From a virus (taxonomy: Duplodnaviria; Heunggongvirae; Uroviricota; Caudoviricetes): a DNA stretch of 13,722 nt. The first letter of the stretch is position 1, and every line of letters begins with the position of its first letter. The stretch covers positions 1 through 13,722 of the IMG/VR virus record IMGVR_UViG_2778261570_000018; one strand, 5' to 3'. Below the pieces are notes generated by a model. It worked only from the letters and a program-made list of their open reading frames with translations, was not told where the DNA came from and ran no database searches. Position numbers and translations under genes: made by a program. Below are positions 241-13,124 of the stretch, one piece after another.

Positions 241-266
241 AAACGCCGCTACTGCGGCGTTTTTTA
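241..266. terminator. Rho-independent terminator shared by convergent glnS and the Dam-like gene
   Basis: Stem aaacgccgc (241-249), loop tact, stem gcggcgttt (254-262), followed by a T-run through 265. The minus-strand Dam-like stop codon (264-266) lies in the T-tract. Confidence 0.65.
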
Positions 267-1842: not shown

Positions 1843-2731
1843 CGCCAATGGCCTCCACCAGCGCGTTAAACAGTGCAGATAATTCGCCCGTAAAGAGCAC
1901 GAAATCAGCATCAAATCGTTGTGCTACATCCTCCCGGTCGATATCGTCGTTCTGGTCATAGAGATCATCACAGAATGTCAGGGCTTTGATACTCATATCA
2001 TCGTTGACTCTGAACGACGCACGGTCCATCCAGTTAATTGCAACGGTCGTAGCTACTTTCCCCGCCTCAATGTGAGACATAATCTCGTCGGACTGTAGAT
2101 CAACTTTGTTGCAGCGAACGGCACCACCATTATCGAGCAGACCCTTTAATGTGGCGTCTTCACCTGCTGTAAATCCGGCAGGGAAGCCGCTTTTAAACCA
2201 CTCGGTCATTGTAATTTCCAGCGGTTCGCGTGGTGTGAATGGAATGACAGGCAGGCTGCCGAGCGACTTTCGCAATAAAGCCAGCTGGTCCTCTGCCTTT
2301 TTGGCGCTGCTTGCCTCAACGAATACCAGATGGTTGCTGCGGTCGATCAGGATTTTGGCGAGTGATTTTCTCGTGAACGCGCGAGGCAAAAGTGAATGCA
2401 GGACTTCATCTTTAAGACTGTCTCTTTCCGTTTTCTTCAGCTTGCGGGCTTGCTCTTCTTCGAGTTTCAGGACTTTTTTCTGCAACTCTTCCTTGAGCAC
2501 CTGCGAGGGGAGAATTTTTTCTTCTCGCTTATGCTGTATTAGCAGAAAACCCTGGTATTCATGGGTGAGGTTGTCACCAAGAACAGGTGTCCAACCGACT
2601 TTAGCTGTGTCCTGAGAACCGCAAGGAGTAAACACGAATTTGCTAAGAGCATCGGATACTTCTGCGGCACTCCAGTTAACTTCACGTGAAAGACGATAGA
2701 TGAAGATGTTTTTGAAAGCGACTGATCTCAT
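1826..2731 (-). CDS. rdgC: RdgC-like recombination-associated DNA-binding protein (extra, island-borne copy)
   Basis: 301 aa, ATG at 2731. Collinear similarity to E. coli RdgC as I recall it ([83 protein letters not shown]-terminal GGEA.R). Confidence 0.85.
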
Positions 2732-2737
2732 GTTTCA

Positions 2738-2781
2738 CCAATTGTGTTAGAAAATTCTATTCAATTATCTAACACAATTGG
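2738..2781. promoter_or_regulatory. Perfect 13-bp inverted repeat with 18-bp AT-rich spacer in the spike-rdgC intergenic region (candidate operator)
   Basis: ccaattgtgttag (2738-2750) and ctaacacaattgg (2769-2781) are exact reverse complements. They lie between the spike-like gene stop (2791) and the rdgC start (2731). No U-tract follows on the transcribed strand, so a terminator is unlikely. Confidence 0.4.
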
Positions 2782-2790
2782 ATGTGTTTT

Positions 2791-3444
2791 CTATCCCTTC
2801 TTGAAATCAAAGTTGCTTGCGATAGCCTGGAAGGTGCCTCCAGCCTTGAAATCAATATTTTCGTCGGCTGTCACAGTAATGTTTTTGCCATTAACGCTGA
2901 TGTTATCGGCTGATTTGACGTTAACACTCCCTCCCGCATTCACTACTACATCAGCCGGACCAATGATGTATATCTGCCCTGATTCATTCATTCCAATCCT
3001 TGAGCCTGCTGCCGTATTCGCTATTTCATATCCACCGCCAGCCGTTCGCACTTCGAGCACATTGTTGCGGTGAATCACGAAATCTTTTGTCGCCGAAAAT
3101 TGCGGGCGGGGAGGCGCTCCGTCTACTTCTGGTGGCGTCCAGCCGCTACCATTGCCTGACGCCTCCGGCGCGACGTTTGGTACTCCGCCAGGCGCATCCT
3201 GAGCTGCGCCAACTATCATTGGGCGTCTGGTATCAATTCGACCATTAACATCCAGATAAGGAAACTCTACCCATACCAGGTCGCCTTTTACTGTAGGTAC
3301 AAAAGCGTTTCCGATGGGTAACAGGTATTCCGCCCAGGGTAGATCGTCATCAGGAACGCCATTCCAGTCAGGTAAAACACGGACTTGAGCACGCATAAGC
3401 CCTGCCGGGTGCACAGTTCCAACAATTTGCGCTCTACGCTTCAT
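2791..3444 (-). CDS. Phage baseplate spike protein, gpV/gp5-like (N-terminal OB-fold plus C-terminal beta-helix-like repeats)
   Basis: N-terminus GLMRAQVRVLPDWNGVPDDDLPWAEYLLPIGNAFVPTVKGDLVWVEFPYLDVNGRIDTRRPMIVGA fits the gpV/gp5/VgrG OB-fold pattern. C-terminus has G/N/V-rich repeats (VVVNAGGSVNVKSADNISVNGKNITVTADENIDFKAGG). The ATG overlaps the upstream stop as ATGA. Confidence 0.55.
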   Translation of the reverse strand: MKRRAQIVGTVHPAGLMRAQVRVLPDWNGVPDDDLPWAEYLLPIGNAFVPTVKGDLVWVEFPYLDVNGRIDTRRPMIVGAAQDAPGGVPNVAPEASGNGSGWTPPEVDGAPPRPQFSATKDFVIHRNNVLEVRTAGGGYEIANTAAGSRIGMNESGQIYIIGPADVVVNAGGSVNVKSADNISVNGKNITVTADENIDFKAGGTFQAIASNFDFKKG

Positions 3445-4421
3445 TTGTTCGGCACTCCCAATATCATTCGTGTTGTGTAGCCTACGCGGTCTTCAAAGTG
3501 CGCAACATTTTTTACTATCAGCTTACGGGGCATTGATTCATCAATGCGGTTTTCCTGGTCATAGCGGTATACGATAATCTCTATCACCATTCCCGGTTTT
3601 ATATCAGGATTGCCTGCGACTTCTATATCCATTTTGGGGACGAGAGACAGCTGCATATTGCGAAGAGTTTCCATATCAGAGTCGGATATATAACGCACTG
3701 GGAGTGAGCTATCGCCATATTCGACGTAGCCATCGGTCATGGAATACCCAACAAAACGATATTGATTCTTTGCTGTTGTCGCATGTTCCTGTTGGAGTAG
3801 GCGCATTTTGGACAAAGTGTATTCTGCTTTAGGGTTATTCCCCTCGTAGGTAAATGATGGCGTTTGCTTCATCAGATCAGCCAGGGTGTAAAAGTTAAAT
3901 TCCCCCCGGCATACCCAACATAATGCACCTTTGTCTCGCGCTATCTCCGAAAGCATTTTTGACGGTTTGTCACCGGCATTCAGATGATATGTAACTGCGC
4001 GTTTTAGCACGCTGCTGGTAATTTTAAGTTTGCCGGAATATGCCTTGAATATAGCGTCTGGTGTTTTGTTGGTATGTAAATTTGTGCGCGGGGAGGGGAT
4101 CTTAAACCTGCGCACGTCTTCACTGACAGCAATAACGGTAACAACATCACCAGCCAGCATTGCAGACGTAACAAAGAAATCTGTTTTAAAAGTGCCTGCA
4201 TTACCGTTTGGATCGCCCATTTCAGCCACCAGCGATGCACCGTATTTGGCTTTCCAGTCATCAATTACGGTGCCGGTAGCGTCATGAATTTCCAGTTTTA
4301 GCAAAGGGGCTTTGAGGCTGGTTTTTTCTACATATACTGCGGTAAAAATCCAGTCTCGTGGCACTTTGTTATCGTTAATGAGCACTGACTGTAGAAAATA
4401 TTGTTGTAACTCCTGGGCCAC
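3441..4421 (-). CDS. Hypothetical protein, 326 aa, in the tail/baseplate-like operon (possible hub-type protein; function not established)
   Basis: Long ORF with GTG start at 4421, 3 nt after the upstream stop, preceded by GGGGTGA. Its stop overlaps the spike gene start (ATGA). No family motif recognised with confidence. Confidence 0.55.
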   Translation of the reverse strand: MAQELQQYFLQSVLINDNKVPRDWIFTAVYVEKTSLKAPLLKLEIHDATGTVIDDWKAKYGASLVAEMGDPNGNAGTFKTDFFVTSAMLAGDVVTVIAVSEDVRRFKIPSPRTNLHTNKTPDAIFKAYSGKLKITSSVLKRAVTYHLNAGDKPSKMLSEIARDKGALCWVCRGEFNFYTLADLMKQTPSFTYEGNNPKAEYTLSKMRLLQQEHATTAKNQYRFVGYSMTDGYVEYGDSSLPVRYISDSDMETLRNMQLSLVPKMDIEVAGNPDIKPGMVIEIIVYRYDQENRIDESMPRKLIVKNVAHFEDRVGYTTRMILGVPNK

Positions 4422-6142: not shown

Positions 6143-6445
6143 ATGACCAAAAAAATTAACATAAAGGATTTCAGGGATGCGTGGCTTGATGATTTTTTTG
6201 AATTTTCAACACCACATAGAAAGATACCTCCTGATATTCATATGACATTGTCACGGAAGTTGGACATTATCAATGCCGCAACTACCTGTAATGATTTAAG
6301 ATCACCACCAGGTAATCGGTATGAGGAACTGTCAGGGAAGCTAAATGGCTATTCATCAGTAAGGGTGAATAAGCAATATAGGTTAATTTTTAAGTGGGTT
6401 AACGGAAAGGCCGAGGACTTGTATCTCGACCCTCACAAATACTAA
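6143..6445 (+). CDS. higB: HigB-family toxin (Rts1 HigB / killer-protein type, RelE/ParE superfamily)
   Basis: 100 aa. C-terminal pattern EELSGKLNGYSSVRVNKQYRLIFKWVNGKAEDLYLDPHKY parallels Rts1 HigB (...LKGDREGYWSITVRANWRITFQFINGD..L..EDYH as recalled). Toxin-first gene order with a downstream HTH antitoxin. Confidence 0.8.
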   Translation: MTKKINIKDFRDAWLDDFFEFSTPHRKIPPDIHMTLSRKLDIINAATTCNDLRSPPGNRYEELSGKLNGYSSVRVNKQYRLIFKWVNGKAEDLYLDPHKY

Positions 6446-6515
6446 AACAGATACCCGGTTACGAACCGGGTTCTGACCAGAGTCCACTTAATACGCACGC
6501 TAGTAAGGGCAAAAA

Positions 6516-6854
6516 ATGAAACAGGCAACCAGAAAACCGACGACCGTAGGTGATATCCTGCTGTACGAATACCTGGAGCCGTTAGAGCTGAAGATCAACG
6601 AGTTAGCAGAAATACTTCATGTTCATCGTAACACCGTAAGTGCTCTTGTTAATAATAATCGTAAGCTAACGATGGATATGGCATATCGCCTGGCAAAAGC
6701 ATTCGATACTTCTGTAGATTTTTGGATTAATCTTCAGACCGCAGTAGATCTGTGGGAAGTCGAAAATGATATGCGCGTTCAGGAAGAGTTAAGTCGTATC
6801 AATACTGCTGAAAAATTTATTTCTCAGCGGAACCTGAATAAAAAAGCAGCCTGA
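6516..6854 (+). CDS. higA: HigA-family antitoxin (XRE-type HTH, addiction-module antidote)
   Basis: 112 aa. GDILLYEYLEPLELKINELAEILHVHRNTVSALVNNNRKLTMDMAYRLAKAFDTSVDFWINLQ matches the HigA antidote HTH pattern. TAAGGG is 6 nt upstream of ATG 6516. Confidence 0.8.
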   Translation: MKQATRKPTTVGDILLYEYLEPLELKINELAEILHVHRNTVSALVNNNRKLTMDMAYRLAKAFDTSVDFWINLQTAVDLWEVENDMRVQEELSRINTAEKFISQRNLNKKAA

Positions 6855-6873
6855 TATAGTAAAACACATACAA

Positions 6874-6905
6874 AAAGCCCACTTAGCAAGTGGGCTTTCC
6901 TTTGT
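6874..6905 (+). terminator. Intrinsic terminator after higBA-1
   Basis: Stem aaagcccact (6874-6883), loop tagca, stem agtgggcttt (6889-6898), then cctttgtaatt. Confidence 0.55.
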
Positions 6906-6910
6906 AATTA

Positions 6911-7270
6911 ATGAACATTAAACCCATCCGTACAGAACAAGATTATGAGGCCGCACTGCGTGCGGTCGAACCGATGTTCGATAACGAACCGGAAATGAAT
7001 ACTCCGGAAGGTGATTTCTTTGAGGTTATGAGTCTTCTCATTGAGGAGTACGAGAAAAAACATTACCCAATTGAGCCACCATCACCTATTGAGGCCATTA
7101 AATTCCGTATGGAACAGCAAGGGCTGACCGTGAAGGATCTGGAACCGGCAATTGGTAAGTCAAACCGTGTTTACGAAGTGCTTAATGGGACACGAAATTT
7201 GACGTTACCTATGATTCGTCGTTTACATGCCCAGTTTGGTATTCCACTGGAAAGCCTGGTTGGCGTTTGA
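6911..7270 (+). CDS. Stand-alone HigA-like antitoxin/regulator of the E. coli YgjM (K-12 HigA) type, C-terminal HTH
   Basis: 119 aa. C-terminal GLTVKDLEPAIGKSNRVYEVLNGTRNLTLPMIRRLHAQFGIPLESL parallels K-12 HigA (GLTLSDLPEIGSKSMVSRVLSGKRKLTLEHAKKLATRFGISPALF as recalled). N-terminal EQDYEAALRAVEPMF parallels EEQYTQALELVDHLL. No cognate toxin gene is adjacent. Confidence 0.7.
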   Translation: MNIKPIRTEQDYEAALRAVEPMFDNEPEMNTPEGDFFEVMSLLIEEYEKKHYPIEPPSPIEAIKFRMEQQGLTVKDLEPAIGKSNRVYEVLNGTRNLTLPMIRRLHAQFGIPLESLVGV

Positions 7271-9756: not shown

Positions 9757-10038
9757 TTATGCGTGGAAAAATAATGGACGGATGTTTGGGCGAGCGGTTT
9801 GCGAAGCAACCCAAAGCTCATACTGAGATTGCATACCGGTCCACATTTCGGCACTGGTTCCAAGAGCGGACTCCAGACGAAGTGCCATATCAGCAGAAAT
9901 GCCTGCTTTTTCGTTCAGAATTCGGGAAAGTGCCGTGCGAGTAATGCCTAATGCAGCAGCGGCGTCTGTGACTGACATGTCTCCCAAATATTCACGAAGA
10001 ACCGCGCCAGGATGCGCGGGATTATGCATACGACTCAT
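9757..10038 (-). CDS. higA: HigA-family antitoxin (XRE-type HTH), second module
   Basis: [72 protein letters not shown] parallels Rts1 HigA (HPGE...SRLL..K......[21 protein letters not shown] as recalled). ATG 10038 is preferred, with GAGGAA overlapping the higB-2 stop; the ORF-track start at 10050 is TTG. Confidence 0.8.
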
Positions 10039-10046
10039 AGTGTTCC

Positions 10047-10328
10047 TCAATGATAATCCTGATAGTCAACTAGAATTGCGTCTTCTCCTTCAAATCGGAA
10101 GGTAAGTCGCCAGTTACCGTTTACCGATATTGCCCAGTGACCTTTAAGGTCCGCCCCCTTTAGAGGGTGCAATTCCCATCCAGGCGCAGACATATCGTCC
10201 GGGCGTTTAGCTGTATTAAGAGCAGTCAATTGAATGCGTAGCTTAACCGCATGTTTGGCCTGAATGCCTGCGGTTGAACCTGTCTTGAAAAAGCGTTCAA
10301 GCCCTTTATGGCGAAATGACTTAATCAA
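10047..10328 (-). CDS. higB: HigB-family toxin (Rts1 HigB type), second module; likely TTG start at 10328
   Basis: Translation from TTG 10328 gives [18 protein letters not shown]...[43 protein letters not shown], closely paralleling Rts1 HigB (MIKSFKHKGLKLLFEKG...HPLKGDREGYWSITVRANWRITFQFINGDAYILNYEDYH as recalled). GGATGG lies 7 nt upstream. The ORF-track start at 10391 adds a non-conserved 21-aa extension. Confidence 0.8.
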
Positions 10329-10664: not shown

Positions 10665-11318
10665 TCAAAGTATCACGGTATCTTCATCAACTTCTTTCCC
10701 AGCCAGTGACTTTGGCTGGGAACTGCCTGCTTTAACTTTTTCATGCCCAATAATGGAAAGGAACGAAGTGAGTATGCCTGTTTTTTGCTCTTTCTCGACT
10801 GTACCGGTCATCTGCTCTACGTAATCCGCACTGGCAACGTTGTGGTATACGGTCGCGTAGCAACACAGGATCATCAGAATATGCTCCGGCCTGATATCCT
10901 GCCAGTTCACCCTGTAGACTTCTTCTCCGTTACCGTTGTATTCGGTATCAACGATAGAGTCGGGGATTTCGAAAGCACCTTTGTTATTTTGCGGCAGGGA
11001 TAATAGCTTCTGGAGTTTTAACTCTCTGTATCTTTCCATCCCGACGATGATTGCTGCTCTGCCATCGGCATGACGGGTCTTGAGAGTCACCTGGCTTGCT
11101 CCGGTGCCAGCGGAGATCGTTGGCGTAATTTCGTCTACCAGTACCTTAAATTTGCTTTTCCGCAGGGCTGCTATAGCTGGAGGAATTTTTTGCTTTTGCT
11201 CCAATGCTGACGCGGGAAGGGGTTTTACTTCGTTAATAATGAGAGCACCGTCTTTCAGTATTGCAGTGAGCATTTGAGGCTTGCTGGTGGTCAGGCTGAA
11301 TATTGCGATCTTTTCCAT
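10665..11318 (-). CDS. Hypothetical protein, about 217 aa, unknown function (start ATG 11318)
   Basis: ORF with GGAGAAAGGA immediately upstream of ATG 11318. The ORF-track N-terminal extension to 11360 runs into the terminator hairpin and is not credible. No family recognised. Confidence 0.55.
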   Translation of the reverse strand: MEKIAIFSLTTSKPQMLTAILKDGALIINEVKPLPASALEQKQKIPPAIAALRKSKFKVLVDEITPTISAGTGASQVTLKTRHADGRAAIIVGMERYRELKLQKLLSLPQNNKGAFEIPDSIVDTEYNGNGEEVYRVNWQDIRPEHILMILCCYATVYHNVASADYVEQMTGTVEKEQKTGILTSFLSIIGHEKVKAGSSQPKSLAGKEVDEDTVIL

Positions 11319-11344
11319 TGTCCTTTCTCCACGGATGACGGATA

Positions 11345-11370
11345 CAAAAAAAGGCCGCACATGGCGGCCT
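11345..11370 (-). terminator. Canonical rho-independent terminator on the minus strand, immediately upstream of the RBS of the 217-aa gene
   Basis: Minus-strand RNA: stem aggccgc, loop caugu, stem gcggccu, then seven U (plus 11352-11370 hairpin, A-run 11346-11352). Lies about 25 nt upstream of ATG 11318. Confidence 0.65.
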
Positions 11371-11601
11371 GCTTTGGCGTTATGACTCCCTACCGCGCTT
11401 CGGCTGAAAGTTAATCGTCAAAAGAACCTTCAACGGGAGCCGTTAGCGCGATGGATTATGTGCAGTTTGTGATTTCCAAAATAGTGTCAACTACTTTTTG
11501 TGGATTTTATTTTTTGTCCGAAATTTGGCCTAAATCATGTTGATTTGGCTGATTATTTTTATAACATAAAACTTCATTTTGTTTACATGAAGGACGGTGT
11601 A

Positions 11602-12216
11602 GTGAAGTTAAGGGTTTTAGGGACCGCGCTCGCGGCTATGTTGGGATGCGTATCTGTTAATACTGCCAATGCAACTGCGTTACCTGCAAAGTATTGGGCT
11701 GGTGTGAAAGTGTTGCGGAACGCTGAAAAAGGCAATACAGCTGATGATATTTTCAAGTTTTGCCAAAAAGAAAATATCCCTCTGCACCCGGTTGAGCCGT
11801 ACTTTACAGGAAAGAATGATTTCTGTGTGTTTGCGTATACCGCAGACCAAACAGATAAGGCTATACGCAAGACAGGGTATTCTACTCAAGACACTATGGC
11901 GTCCTTAAGTAAAAACTGGTTGCAGTTTGAGGTTTACCGTAGTGAAGGAATGGGAGAGCTATTGCAGCCACTGTATATGCTGGCGTTAGTTCCGGAAGGG
12001 CAGCAGTTCCTTATTCGAAAAGGAATGCTTCGGAAAAGCGATGTAACCGGATTCAATAACACGATGGAGCTTGAACGCTCAATGAAGCAAAAGCAAGCGC
12101 CTAAGCAGCCAACAGCCGAATGTATTAGCAGCGAGATACAAAAGGCATTAAGCGAGCAGCCTTACATTGATCGTGGTGTGGCGGAAATGGCTGCCAAAAT
12201 GAAGTGTTCCAATTAA
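11602..12216 (+). CDS. Hypothetical secreted/periplasmic protein with N-terminal signal peptide (start GTG 11602; alternative ATG 11587)
   Basis: AAGGA (11590-11594) is 7 nt upstream of GTG 11602. N-terminus MKLRVLGTALAAMLGCVSVNTANA is a typical signal peptide (ANA cleavage site or a weak lipobox). Mature part contains several Cys. The ORF-track start at 11500 lacks an RBS. Confidence 0.55.
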   Translation: MKLRVLGTALAAMLGCVSVNTANATALPAKYWAGVKVLRNAEKGNTADDIFKFCQKENIPLHPVEPYFTGKNDFCVFAYTADQTDKAIRKTGYSTQDTMASLSKNWLQFEVYRSEGMGELLQPLYMLALVPEGQQFLIRKGMLRKSDVTGFNNTMELERSMKQKQAPKQPTAECISSEIQKALSEQPYIDRGVAEMAAKMKCSN

Positions 12217-12259: not shown

Positions 12260-13081
12260 ATGTTCTTTATGAAAAATGGAAAAAGATTTTCCGCAACAAT
12301 GCTTGCTACTATTGTCGCTCTTTTCGTTCCCACATTCACCTTTGCTTATGATTTTAGCAAAATTGACTGCAATGCCCCTAAAACCAGGCAGATGTTAATC
12401 GATGATTATAATGAACTACTCAAGGACGATCAGGAAGCAATCACTGTAATTGATGCTTATAATCAGATTAATGAAATAAGCGAAAAAAGTAAGCTCCAAT
12501 GTTTAGGCACGTATGAGTTCTCAGATGGAAGTGCGCTTAGAGTTAGATATAAGTTATATTTAAATAGCCTCGGCACACCCATATATGAATTTGCTCCAGT
12601 TGAGGAATTAACGCAGGATGATGTAAGCGCATCTATTCAAAATATCCCTGCAACCACAGCGAGTAGGACTGGGGGGAATGAAGAAACGTATGCCTGCAAG
12701 GTGGCTGTAACTTACAAGGGGGAGCGTTCTAACTATATGGGGGATTCCGGAACATGGGATCGTGTGATTACTGACTATGGCACTTATTTTTCATGGGATT
12801 TACCACGCGGAAACCGAGGCAACAGCACAGGTCAGGATGCTTTTAGTGGCATGGACGAATCAAAGCCTGTATTAGAAAATCAGCTAGTGAGAAAGGAAAC
12901 TGAAAAAGATGGTAGCGTGGTTGATGAGTTTAGGACAGAAGTGAGTTATGGAGATAAACAACCGGTACATAAGTTTGTATATGCCCGTAGAATAAAACCT
13001 ACAGGAACGAGAGAATATTATGTCACTGATTTGACGGACAAGCGGGCATTTATGTTTCTGAATTGCCAGCAAGATTCGTAA
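12260..13081 (+). CDS. Hypothetical secreted protein with N-terminal signal peptide
   Basis: GGAG is 8 nt upstream of ATG 12260. N-terminus MFFMKNGKRFSATMLATIVALFVPTFTFA. AT-rich coding region, 43 nt downstream of the preceding gene (likely co-transcribed). Confidence 0.6.
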   Translation: MFFMKNGKRFSATMLATIVALFVPTFTFAYDFSKIDCNAPKTRQMLIDDYNELLKDDQEAITVIDAYNQINEISEKSKLQCLGTYEFSDGSALRVRYKLYLNSLGTPIYEFAPVEELTQDDVSASIQNIPATTASRTGGNEETYACKVAVTYKGERSNYMGDSGTWDRVITDYGTYFSWDLPRGNRGNSTGQDAFSGMDESKPVLENQLVRKETEKDGSVVDEFRTEVSYGDKQPVHKFVYARRIKPTGTREYYVTDLTDKRAFMFLNCQQDS

Positions 13082-13086
13082 TTGAT

Positions 13087-13124
13087 AAAGCAGGCTTAAC
13101 GACTAAGCCTGCTTTTTGAATTTT
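13087..13124 (+). terminator. Intrinsic terminator after the secreted-protein operon (also abuts the stop of the convergent membrane-protein gene)
   Basis: 11-bp perfect stem aaagcaggctt (13087-13097) / aagcctgcttt (13105-13115), 7-nt loop, then tttttgaatttt. Confidence 0.6.

What the first reader, a model, noticed from the sequence alone, without database searches (positions are those of the whole stretch)
11319..11500. Intrinsic terminator sandwiched between a promoter-like TTGACA and the RBS of an unknown 217-aa gene
A textbook minus-strand terminator (GC stem plus seven U) sits about 25 nt upstream of the start codon of the 10665-11318 gene, with about 110 nt of untranslated sequence and a perfect TTGACA (plus 11485-11490) further upstream. 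There is no upstream minus-strand gene for it to terminate. This layout implies a leader-terminator attenuator or riboswitch-like element, or a small stand-alone RNA, controlling a gene of unknown function. I found no tandem repeats, so a ToxIN-type RNA antitoxin is not supported.
Basis: seen in the sequence. Interest (0 to 1): 0.5.

Follow-up and report, generated by a model that had tools for sequence, protein, structure and literature searches.

The report
Phage small RNA matching capsid mRNA
The promoter-hairpin-terminator unit in front of the phage gene mat looks like a conserved, previously unannotated small RNA of about 100 nt, found in P1- and D6-type phage-plasmids, whose exposed loop is complementary to the leader of the phage's own major capsid mRNA, so it probably tunes capsid production.

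Summary
A strong intrinsic terminator (11370-11352, T7 at 11352-11346, minus strand) lies 27 nt before the ATG, and TTGACA is at 11490-11485. The 217-aa gene is not unknown: it is mat (P1 "maturation control"), and the window is a D6-like phage-plasmid.

About 60 distinct mat leaders, including phage P1, share one layout: promoter, then a roughly 70-nt three-way-junction RNA, then a terminator, then mat. The junction is supported by covariation (14 doubly changed pairs against 5.8±1.5 in shuffles). There is no Rfam match. The P1 reference record annotates this stretch as mat coding sequence.

The apical loop (GAAGGUUCUUUUGACG) is perfectly complementary to the 5' leader of the major capsid mRNA, 19 kb away and outside the window. 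This is the best partner in the whole 92.6-kb plasmid. Loop and capsid leader change together in eight lineage types, with Watson-Crick swaps and G-U wobbles; the cognate pair scores best in 7 of 8.

Best reading: a leader-derived, terminated small RNA that pairs in trans with the capsid mRNA leader, while its terminator also attenuates mat. I infer that pairing opens a structure hiding the capsid start codon and Shine-Dalgarno sequence. The transcript, the direction of the effect and any Hfq dependence are untested.

The parts
11485..11490 (-). TTGACA, a -35-like hexamer. In some relatives it marks the upstream edge of the conserved module.
   Evidence: Seen. In plasmids H88/H89 the homology begins exactly here. 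The equivalent hexamer in P1 is annotated as the -35 of sigma-70 promoter Pmat. Here it lies 24 nt from the -10, so whether it is used is uncertain.
11455..11477 (-). D6-type late promoter: GGAAATCACAAACTG (11477-11463) plus the -10 hexamer CATAAT (11460-11455).
   Evidence: The same motif, GAAAT[AC]ACAAA[CG]TG followed by a -10, precedes the capsid, tail, holin and PAAR genes of the near-identical plasmid pF719-4. In P1 the equivalent is the curated late promoter LPmat, with a -22 box.
11346..11449 (-). Predicted small RNA of about 103 nt: inferred start 6-8 nt after the -10, end in the T run.
   Evidence: The covariance model matches 11455-11344 at 130.6 bits and finds a single copy in the window and in the whole plasmid. 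Fold z-score is -2.68. The ends are inferred, not measured.
11435..11449 (-). 5' strand of the outer helix (GCGCUAAC-GGCUCCC) of the three-way junction.
   Evidence: Pairs with 11377-11390. In helix 1, 8 of 13 pairs have changes on both sides across 20 leaders.
11406..11431 (-). Hairpin HP1: GAAGGUU[CUUUUGACGAUU]AACUUUC, with a 12-nt apical loop.
   Evidence: helix 2, 94% of cells paired, 3 pairs with double changes.
11416..11432 (-). Site 1, UGAAGGUUCUUUUGACG: 17 nt complementary to the major capsid mRNA leader (target lies outside the window).
   Evidence: Best partner in the whole 92.6-kb plasmid (score 41 against next best 31). 0 of 3000 shuffles reach it. Duplex energy -27.6 kcal/mol. It co-varies with the target across lineages.
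11392..11404 (-). Hairpin HP2, GCCG[AAGCG]CGGU. It carries the invariant GCGCGG(U) at 11398-11392, a possible second contact with CCGCGC in the capsid leader.
   Evidence: helix 3. GCGCGG is invariant in all D6-like leaders, and CCGCGC is invariant in all D6-like capsid leaders. The pairing extends to 9 bp in the L288 and L318 types.
11377..11390 (-). 3' strand of the outer helix (GGGAGUC-AUAACGC).
11346..11370 (-). Intrinsic terminator: stem-loop 11370-11352, T7 at 11352-11346.
   Evidence: Present in all lineages, with compensatory changes in two pairs (helix 4).
11321..11330 (-). Shine-Dalgarno region of mat (GGAGAAAGGA).
   Evidence: Read from the sequence.
10665..11318 (-). mat (maturation control protein, 217 aa), transcribed through the terminator.
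   Evidence: Annotated as mat. It is 32-34% identical to P1 Mat. No Pfam domain. Matches PHROG 1837.

Best explanation
The element is a dual-function leader. Transcription starts at a late-type promoter (-10 at 11460-11455) and produces a structured RNA. The RNA has a three-way junction whose hairpin HP1 carries an exposed 12-nt loop. Most transcripts stop at the intrinsic terminator, releasing a small RNA of about 100 nt. The fraction that reads through becomes mat mRNA. The small RNA pairs in trans with the 5' leader of the major capsid mRNA (the homolog of P1 gene 23), which is made from a promoter of the same class. The main contact uses the HP1 loop and 5' stem (16-17 bp in this phage). 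A second likely contact is the invariant GCGCGG with CCGCGC. In D6-like phages the capsid leader folds so that its GUG start codon and its Shine-Dalgarno sequence are both base-paired. The two contact sites overlap the 5' strands of those helices. I therefore expect pairing to open the leader and switch on, or boost, capsid translation. Shown here: the sequence features, the conserved RNA fold, the complementarity and its co-variation. Inferred: that the short RNA exists, that it acts in trans, and the direction of the effect.
For: (1) Structure. The unit is conserved upstream of every Mat homolog, down to 33-35% protein identity (P1-type and L048-type leaders), and the covariance model detects it down to about 41%. 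The three-way junction plus terminator has 88% of cells paired, and 14 pairs are changed on both sides against 5.8±1.5 in shuffles (0/500); slid controls reach at most 56%. P1-type leaders have the same architecture from different sequence, with 3 compensatory pairs in the outer stem.
(2) Non-coding. The 37-codon extension in the P1 reference annotation hits a stop in L100, is out of frame with mat in L077, and is absent in D6 types (read from the sequences).
(3) Target found without bias. A scan of both strands of the 92.6-kb plasmid puts the capsid-leader site first (17 bp, score 41; next best 31). The chance of a 16-mer anywhere is about 0.003 by my arithmetic.
(4) Same relation in P1 with different sequence: GGAUCCCUUUUC pairs with GAAAAGGGAUUC just downstream of late promoter LP23. 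Shuffle tests give 0/3000 (D6, L037, L043), 2/3000 (P1) and 7/3000 (L101).
(5) Co-variation between the two loci. In the L290 type, GAGGUUUUUUGGCG pairs with CGCCAAAAAACCUC (C-G to U-A and A-U to G-C relative to D6). In the L288 type, GGAAUUUUUGAC pairs with GUCAAAAAUUCC. In L101 against P1, CCC/GGG becomes CUC/GAG. In the L043, L037 and L580 variants pairing is kept only through G-U wobble. The cognate pair scores best in 7 of 8 lineages, with a mean of 31.0 against 17.2 for non-cognate pairs.
(6) Shared promoter class. The RNA and its target share a late-promoter motif in D6 types, and LPmat and LP23 are both curated late promoters in P1.
(7) Closed target leader. Its consensus fold pairs the start codon (2 compensatory pairs) and the Shine-Dalgarno sequence. 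Blocking the contact sites removes these helices in constrained folds.
Against: There is no expression data, so the short transcript, its ends and its abundance are unproven. In P1 alone the capsid site ties for 3rd to 5th genome-wide rather than ranking first. The L045 and L318 lineages carry a mismatch or a bulge in site 1. In P1, site 1 does not overlap the helix that masks the Shine-Dalgarno sequence, and constrained folding does not free that sequence there; in several D6-like leaders it frees it only partly. The sign of regulation is therefore weakly supported. Site 2 is invariant on both sides, so it offers little covariation evidence. In the window's own sequence the minimum-free-energy fold is a single long hairpin (S1, -41.1 kcal/mol), not the junction (-38.4 kcal/mol). 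S1 also has one true compensatory change. HP1 is exposed in both folds. The covariation alignment was fitted to the model, which biases pair counts towards it.
Confidence: 0.6

Rival explanations
1. A purely cis-acting attenuator of mat. The three-way junction senses a factor (Mat itself, another protein, a small ligand, or the capsid mRNA leader acting as an RNA signal) and sets how much RNA polymerase reads through the terminator. The short RNA is a by-product.
For: There is no room for a promoter between the terminator and mat (27 nt here, 12-15 nt in P1). The layout is a conserved structured domain followed by a terminator. Two near-isoenergetic folds exist in D6 types, S1 and S2. The 5' arm of the terminator, GCCGC(C), is constant across lineages while the loop and 3' arm vary.
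Against: I found no conserved antiterminator pairing with the terminator arms (hand analysis of the sequences). S1 has no significant covariation overall (27/500 shuffles reach its count of doubly changed pairs and 68/500 reach its covariation score) and cannot form in the L288 group or in P1 types. The invariant loop nucleotides are accounted for by complementarity to the capsid leader. No riboswitch or leader family matches in Rfam. This reading is compatible with the best explanation as a second function rather than exclusive of it.
Confidence: 0.2
2. The shared 16-17 bp is a DNA operator, bound by one phage protein at both the mat and capsid promoters, present in opposite orientations. RNA pairing is incidental.
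For: Both copies lie just downstream of late promoters. Co-evolution of two sites would also be expected if one protein's specificity drifted.
Against: Several lineages keep RNA pairing only through G-U wobble, which makes the two DNA sites differ: L043 has GAGGG against the reverse complement GAAAG, and the L037 and L580 variants behave the same way. The orientation is always RNA-antisense. The distance from the -10 differs (about +6 in the capsid leader, about +23 in the mat leader). The site is embedded in a hairpin whose stem covaries as RNA.
Confidence: 0.07
3. The region is coding or a relic. Either it is an N-terminal extension of Mat or a leader peptide (as in the P1 reference annotation, where mat is 250 aa), or it is a leftover terminator of an upstream operon (ref or icd) with a chance promoter-like hexamer.
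For: The P1 reference record starts mat at 2716, inside HP1. In P1 and in plasmid L008, co-directional genes (ref; icd-like) lie upstream. In L322 the hairpin directly follows the stop codon of an unrelated upstream gene and may serve as its terminator.
Against: The upstream reading frame is interrupted or out of frame with mat in L100 and L077, is absent in D6 types, and its frame is not kept between D6 and L288 types (read from the sequences). Substitutions follow base-pairing, not codons. In this window and in D6 no co-directional upstream gene exists. The module, including its own promoter, is conserved as a unit, and in some plasmids homology starts exactly at TTGACA.
Confidence: 0.03

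Closest known systems
StxS, and the lambda 6S transcript from PR' to tR' (from memory: Sy et al., PNAS 2020)
   Same: A short RNA made by early termination just downstream of a phage late promoter, upstream of late genes. The terminated leader acts in trans as a base-pairing small RNA.
   Different: In lambdoid phages, read-through is provided by the Q antiterminator and the known targets are host or toxin mRNAs. Here the late regulator (Lpa in P1) is an activator, no antiterminator is known, and the predicted target is the phage's own capsid mRNA. There is no sequence or Rfam relationship.
P1/P7 C4 antisense RNA (immI region; Rfam family 'C4 antisense RNA', accession cited from memory as RF01695)
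   Same: It occurs in the same group of phages. It is a structured RNA of about 77 nt that uses two short loop sequences to pair with two sites upstream of a ribosome-binding site (annotated).
   Different: C4 is cut from the same transcript as its target, sits next to that target, and represses icd/ant. The element here has its own terminator, no Rfam C4 match, a target 19 kb away (56 kb in P1), and a probably opposite effect.
Anti-antisense activators: DsrA, RprA and ArcZ on rpoS; RNAIII on hla (textbook knowledge)
   Same: The small RNA pairs with the 5' strand of a self-inhibitory leader helix that hides the ribosome-binding site. This is the mechanism proposed here for the capsid leader.
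   Different: Those are host small RNAs with their own genes. Activation here is only a structural inference.
Attenuator- or leader-derived trans-acting small RNAs: rnTrpL in Sinorhizobium, SreA in Listeria, IsrK in Salmonella Gifsy-1 (from memory)
   Same: One leader serves both as a cis terminator for the downstream gene and as a trans-acting RNA.
   Different: They belong to different sequence families. The isrK model matches only the terminator (14.7 bits against a gathering score of 50).

Membership tests
Intrinsic (Rho-independent) terminator | G+C-rich stem-loop followed directly by a U run on the transcribed strand | tested here: met
   7-bp stem with 6 G-C pairs, 5-nt loop and seven T. 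Hairpin energy -12.5 kcal/mol. Kept in all lineages, with compensatory changes.
Trans-acting base-pairing small RNA | Own promoter and own terminator, defining a short non-coding transcript | tested here: inconclusive
   A late-promoter motif and a -10 are present, the terminator is present, and no conserved reading frame exists. The transcript itself was not observed and cannot be tested with these tools.
Trans-acting base-pairing small RNA | A conserved, accessible seed complementary to a target mRNA, with co-variation between seed and target | tested here: met
   The seed lies in the apical loop and 5' stem of HP1 in both candidate folds.
Trans-acting base-pairing small RNA | Binding to Hfq or ProQ, and a measurable effect on the target | not testable with these tools
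   Needs co-immunoprecipitation or RIL-seq, and reporter assays.
Riboswitch or transcription attenuator | Conserved structured sensor domain upstream of a terminator in the 5' leader of the regulated gene | tested here: met
   A covarying three-way junction lies about 7 nt before the terminator stem and 27 nt before the mat ATG is reached after the T run.
Riboswitch or transcription attenuator | A conserved alternative (antiterminator) pairing that excludes the terminator | tested here: not met
   The only candidates were short: GCGGU with GCCGC (5 bp) in D6 types, and GGaCGGC with GCCGCC in P1 types. Neither was supported (hand analysis). The alternative fold S1 does not involve the terminator.
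Riboswitch or transcription attenuator | Match to a described riboswitch or leader family | tested here: not met
   Rfam 15 gave no match at gathering scores across the window, and only isrK at E = 0.99 in 11200-11700.
C4 antisense RNA (P1/P7/P4 type) | Match to the Rfam C4 covariance model | tested here: not met
   No hit.
isrK (RF01394) | Score at or above the gathering score of 50 bits over the whole model | tested here: not met
   14.7 bits, E = 0.99. Only the terminator hairpin aligns.
ToxIN-type RNA antitoxin | Tandem array of repeats of about 36 nt upstream of the toxin gene | tested here: not met
   No repeats within 11345-11500. The only array is a weak 11-nt, 2.1-copy one at 11513-11535.
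RfaH ops element | A conserved GGCGGTAGnnTG sequence in the non-template strand of the leader | tested here: not met
   The window has GCGGTAG (11396-11390), but this reads GCGGTTG, GCGGACG or is absent in the L043, L045, L048 and P1 leaders.

The most novel reading that the evidence does not exclude
P1- and D6-type phage-plasmids encode an undescribed small RNA in the mat leader that is required to unlock translation of a self-inhibited major capsid mRNA. The lineage-specific loop sequence would act as a specificity code, so that each phage activates only its own capsid message. This could matter for cross-talk or incompatibility between co-resident phage-plasmids. Part of the classical 'maturation control' phenotype of the mat locus could then be due to the RNA rather than to the protein.
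Probability: 0.3. Interest if true: 0.85.

Novelty: new variant of a known kind. Interest (0 to 1): 0.78.

Why it matters
P1 is one of the most used model and tool phages, and P1- and D6-like phage-plasmids are widespread carriers of resistance genes in Enterobacteriaceae. Mat homologs occur in 988 PLSDB plasmids. A conserved RNA regulator linking an early/late leader to the capsid message would add a post-transcriptional layer to P1 late gene control, which is currently explained by C1, Lpa and SspA alone. It would also correct the reference annotation of mat and provide a clean, compensatory-mutation-ready system for studying small-RNA control of virion production. The lineage-specific seed-target pairs suggest a natural set of orthogonal RNA switches. 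The library searches I ran found no description of this RNA, but the library lacks most subscription-journal papers, including the P1 genome paper and the paper on the mat promoter.

Tried and rejected
- Rfam at gathering and permissive thresholds found nothing beyond a terminator-only isrK match.
- A tRNA scan found none.
- An RfaH ops resemblance (GCGGTAG) is not conserved in other lineages and was dropped.
- Pairing of the loop with mat's own ribosome-binding site or first codons failed: the pyrimidine-rich loop matches many purine-rich sites, and changes such as GAAAAG to GAACAG are not compensated.
- A leader peptide or N-terminal extension of Mat was rejected because the frame is not conserved.
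- The long-hairpin fold S1 as the conserved structure was rejected: its covariation is weak and it cannot form in several lineages. It remains a possible alternative conformer in the D6 subgroup.
- Searching the window for TCACAAACTG as a general late-promoter motif found only one copy. A looser motif searched on the whole plasmid did recur before late operons.
- The degenerate DNA pattern scan of viral contigs was too unspecific. Of 100 hits only 4 were real leaders. This did serve as a specificity control for the covariance model.
- Klebsiella plasmid NZ_OW970446 was fetched as a possible extra lineage. The half fetched (1-50000) showed only ordinary resistance-plasmid genes, so I did not pursue it.
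- A full RNAduplex scan of both genomes timed out and was replaced by an ungapped helix scan.
- The Lobocka 2004 and Lehnherr 2001 papers could not be read. What I say about the dual C1/Lpa control of Pmat rests on memory plus the curated features in NC_005856.
- Mat has no Pfam domain. I ran no further search on it.

Full report
**1. What the window is**

The 1.7 kb around the finding is 99.8% identical to E. coli plasmid pF719-4 and about 97% identical to phage D6. Both are D6-like phage-plasmids, relatives of P1. The 217-aa gene at 10665-11318 (minus strand) is annotated there as maturation control protein, "similar to P1 gene mat". It is 32-34% identical to P1 Mat. It has no Pfam domain.

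**2. The observation**

One search finds the minus-strand stem AGGCCGC-CAUGU-GCGGCCU at 11370-11352, followed by seven T at 11352-11346. The T run ends 27 nt before the ATG, and that spacer holds only the Shine-Dalgarno sequence. TTGACA is at 11490-11485. The upstream neighbour is a divergent plus-strand gene (ATG 11587). So the description is correct.

The one caveat concerns the promoter. TTGACA is 24 nt from the only good -10 (CATAAT, 11460-11455), and the consensus scan calls no sigma-70 promoter here.

**3. Conservation**

In ten D6-like relatives, the block from TTGACA to the terminator is almost invariant, while the flanks and mat itself drop to about 80% identity. In some plasmids the homology starts exactly at TTGACA.

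I collected Mat loci from genomes, viral contigs, metagenomes and exact-protein look-ups. This gave about 60 distinct leaders. Every one with an intact upstream region shows the same layout: a promoter-like sequence, then 60-70 nt of structured sequence, then a G+C hairpin with a T run, then 12-45 nt, then mat. P1 itself has this layout built from unrelated sequence.

A covariance model built from seven leaders finds the element upstream of all D6-type Mat homologs down to about 41% protein identity. It finds one copy per plasmid. In 0.88 Mb of unrelated viral DNA that shares a short motif, it finds only the real leaders. Rfam has no match.

**4. Structure**

Single-sequence folds suggest two competing structures in D6 types.

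- S1 is one long hairpin. It is the minimum-free-energy fold here, at -41.1 kcal/mol.
- S2 is a three-way junction: an outer helix (11449-11435 with 11390-11377), HP1 (11431-11406) and HP2 (11404-11392). It reaches -38.4 kcal/mol.

On 20 distinct leaders, S2 plus the terminator has 88% of cells paired. Fourteen pairs are changed on both sides, against 5.8±1.5 in shuffles (0/500), and slid controls reach at most 56%. S1 is weak by comparison (27/500 shuffles reach its count of doubly changed pairs and 68/500 reach its covariation score). It does have one genuine U-A to A-U swap in the D6 subgroup.

P1-type leaders fold into the same architecture: a 9-bp outer stem with three compensatory pairs, HP1, HP2 and the terminator. 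S2 is therefore the conserved fold. The alignment was fitted to the model, so the counts lean towards it. The slid controls and the independent P1-type result argue that the signal is real.

**5. The region is not coding**

The curated P1 record places the C1 operator Omat, the sigma-70 promoter Pmat and the late promoter LPmat just upstream. It starts the mat CDS at 2716, inside HP1, and reads through both hairpins. That 37-codon extension hits a stop in L100, is out of frame with mat in L077, and is absent in D6 types (sequences). All lineages share the downstream ATG with a Shine-Dalgarno sequence. This annotation probably explains why the RNA has gone unnoticed.

**6. The promoter**

The motif GAAAT[AC]ACAAA[CG]TG followed by a -10 occurs before the capsid, tail, holin and PAAR genes of pF719-4, as well as before the leader. 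In P1 the corresponding LPmat and LP23 are curated late promoters with -22 boxes. From memory, Lehnherr et al. (J Bacteriol 2001) showed that Pmat is controlled by both C1 and Lpa. I could not read that paper.

**7. The key result: a partner RNA**

I searched the whole plasmid for sequences complementary to the non-terminator part of the RNA. This gave a 16-17-nt perfect match.

- RNA: UGAAGGUUCUUUUGACG (window 11432-11416).
- Target: CGTCAAAAGAACCTTCA at plasmid position 50028, on the sense strand, about 30 nt upstream of the GTG of the major capsid gene and just after its late promoter.

In an ungapped helix scan of both strands, this is the single best partner (score 41; next best 31). The target lies outside the window.

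In P1, the HP1 loop GGAUCCCUUUUC pairs with GAAAAGGGAUUC at the equivalent place in the gene-23 leader. That site ties for 3rd to 5th genome-wide. Tested as an a-priori hypothesis, it is reached by 2 of 3000 shuffles.

**8. Co-variation between the two loci**

Each pair below comes from one genome. Pairing was by identical contig name where available, and otherwise by matching contig length between collections.

- D6: 16-17 Watson-Crick pairs.
- L037 type: the target changes C to U, giving a G-U pair.
- L043: the RNA changes A to G and the target changes C to U, giving 16 bp with three G-U pairs.
- L290/L336: GAGGUUUUUUGGCG with CGCCAAAAAACCUC, 14 perfect pairs, with two double swaps relative to D6.
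- L288/L335: GGAAUUUUUGAC with GUCAAAAAUUCC, plus a variant with a U-G pair.
- L045/L097: 14 of 15 pairs.
- L318: 10 bp, a bulge, then 6 bp.
- L101 against P1: CCC/GGG becomes CUC/GAG, and a U-A pair becomes A-U.

In an 8x8 matrix, the cognate pair is best in 7 rows, with a mean of 31.0 against 17.2 for non-cognate pairs. The wobble-only changes make the two DNA sites differ, which argues against a shared protein operator.

**9. A possible second contact**

GCGCGG (11398-11393) is invariant in D6-like leaders, although HP2's other strand varies. CCGCGC is invariant in all D6-like capsid leaders. The complementarity extends to 7 bp here and to 9 bp in the L288 and L318 types. P1 types have an invariant GGCAC opposite an invariant GUGCC. 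Because both sides are invariant, this contact is suggestive only.

**10. What pairing would do**

The RNAalifold consensus of 15 D6-like capsid leaders has two helices.

- Helix I pairs [C/U]UC[G/A]C[A/G] with the GUG start codon region. Two of its pairs show compensatory changes.
- Helix II pairs GCCC with GGGC and holds the Shine-Dalgarno sequence.

Site 1 overlaps the 5' strand of helix I in this phage. Site 2 overlaps helices I and II. Constrained folds lose these helices when the sites are blocked.

In P1 types, the extreme 5' end pairs with the Shine-Dalgarno sequence. This pairing covaries: CUCUUCC/GGAAGAG in P1 and UUUGUCCU/AGGACAAA in L101. Site 1 abuts that helix. Blocking site 1 frees the Shine-Dalgarno sequence in L101 but not in P1.

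I therefore favour translational activation by opening of the leader. That step is inferred and could be wrong in sign.

**11. mat itself**

No promoter fits between the terminator and mat, so mat must be expressed by read-through. The terminator thus also acts as an attenuator. I found no conserved antiterminator.

Three natural variants are informative.

- L283 carries an extra 90 nt with a second promoter-like motif after the terminator.
- L322 keeps only the terminator, which there directly follows the stop codon of an unrelated upstream gene.
- L325 has an IS1 inserted in HP2.

**12. Verdict**

The best-supported reading is a conserved, unannotated, leader-derived small RNA of P1- and D6-type phages that base-pairs with the major capsid mRNA leader. 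The kind of regulator is known: terminated-leader small RNAs such as StxS, and anti-antisense activators. This family, its target and its presence in P1 appear to be undescribed in the literature I could search.

Noticed in passing
L377 (NC_005856) 2716-3468, against window 10665-11318: The P1 reference annotation gives Mat as 250 aa, starting at an ATG inside the leader hairpin and reading through the terminator. PGAP-style annotations, and all homologs, start 37 codons later. The reference start is probably wrong.
   Followed up: yes
L283:400-600 (Raoultella contig JAWIBD010000023): About 90 extra nt lie between the terminator and the mat ATG. They contain a second copy of the promoter-like motif (TTTCACAC...ACATAG), so in this lineage mat may have its own promoter downstream of the small-RNA gene.
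   Followed up: partly
L325 and L322 (metagenome contigs OJTV01000222 and OGPE01003191): Natural disruptions of the leader. In L325 an IS1 end is inserted at the GCGCGG motif. In L322 everything upstream of the terminator is replaced by an unrelated gene whose stop codon directly precedes the hairpin.
   Followed up: partly
window 11513-11535, and the conserved GATTTAGGCCAAATT at about 11535-11521: Between the leader promoter and the divergent plus-strand gene lies a weak 11-nt direct repeat (TTTGGCCGAAA, 2.1 copies). Next to it is a block conserved across D6-like relatives. It may be an operator for the divergent promoters.
   Followed up: no
window 11587-12216 (+) and 12260-13081 (+): The divergent neighbour begins MKDGVVKLRVLGTALAAMLGC, a lipoprotein-like signal sequence with a lipobox. 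It belongs to a variable cargo slot: D6 carries a simB-like gene there and other relatives carry unrelated genes. The two genes match only PHROG families of unknown function. The second has a faint metallo-beta-lactamase-fold hit (E = 0.037).
   Followed up: partly
window 9757-10328 (-) and 6143-7270 (+): Two RelE/ParE-HigA type toxin-antitoxin modules are inserted among the tail and baseplate genes on either side of the gene 25/26 homologs. The one between mat and gene 26 is absent from D6 itself.
   Followed up: no
window 241-262, 6872-6900, 13087-13115: Three long, perfect hairpins flanked by A and T runs are scored as terminators on both strands. They look like bidirectional terminators between convergent genes.
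   Followed up: no
PLSDB hits: Mat homologs occur in 988 plasmids. Among them are 129 Klebsiella plasmids, many much larger than a phage-plasmid (195-272 kb among those listed), and 15 Vibrio plasmids. In the one Klebsiella IncFIB plasmid I sampled, the half fetched held only ordinary resistance-plasmid genes, and its mat locus was not examined. The L318-type leader, from viral and gut-metagenome contigs with the same 53% Mat identity, has an intact small-RNA gene.
   Followed up: partly
L375/L376 (pF719-4) 27702, 48260, 80965: The plasmid carries three separate icd-like/antirepressor (immI-like) modules, each of which might have its own C4-type RNA. I did not examine them.
   Followed up: no
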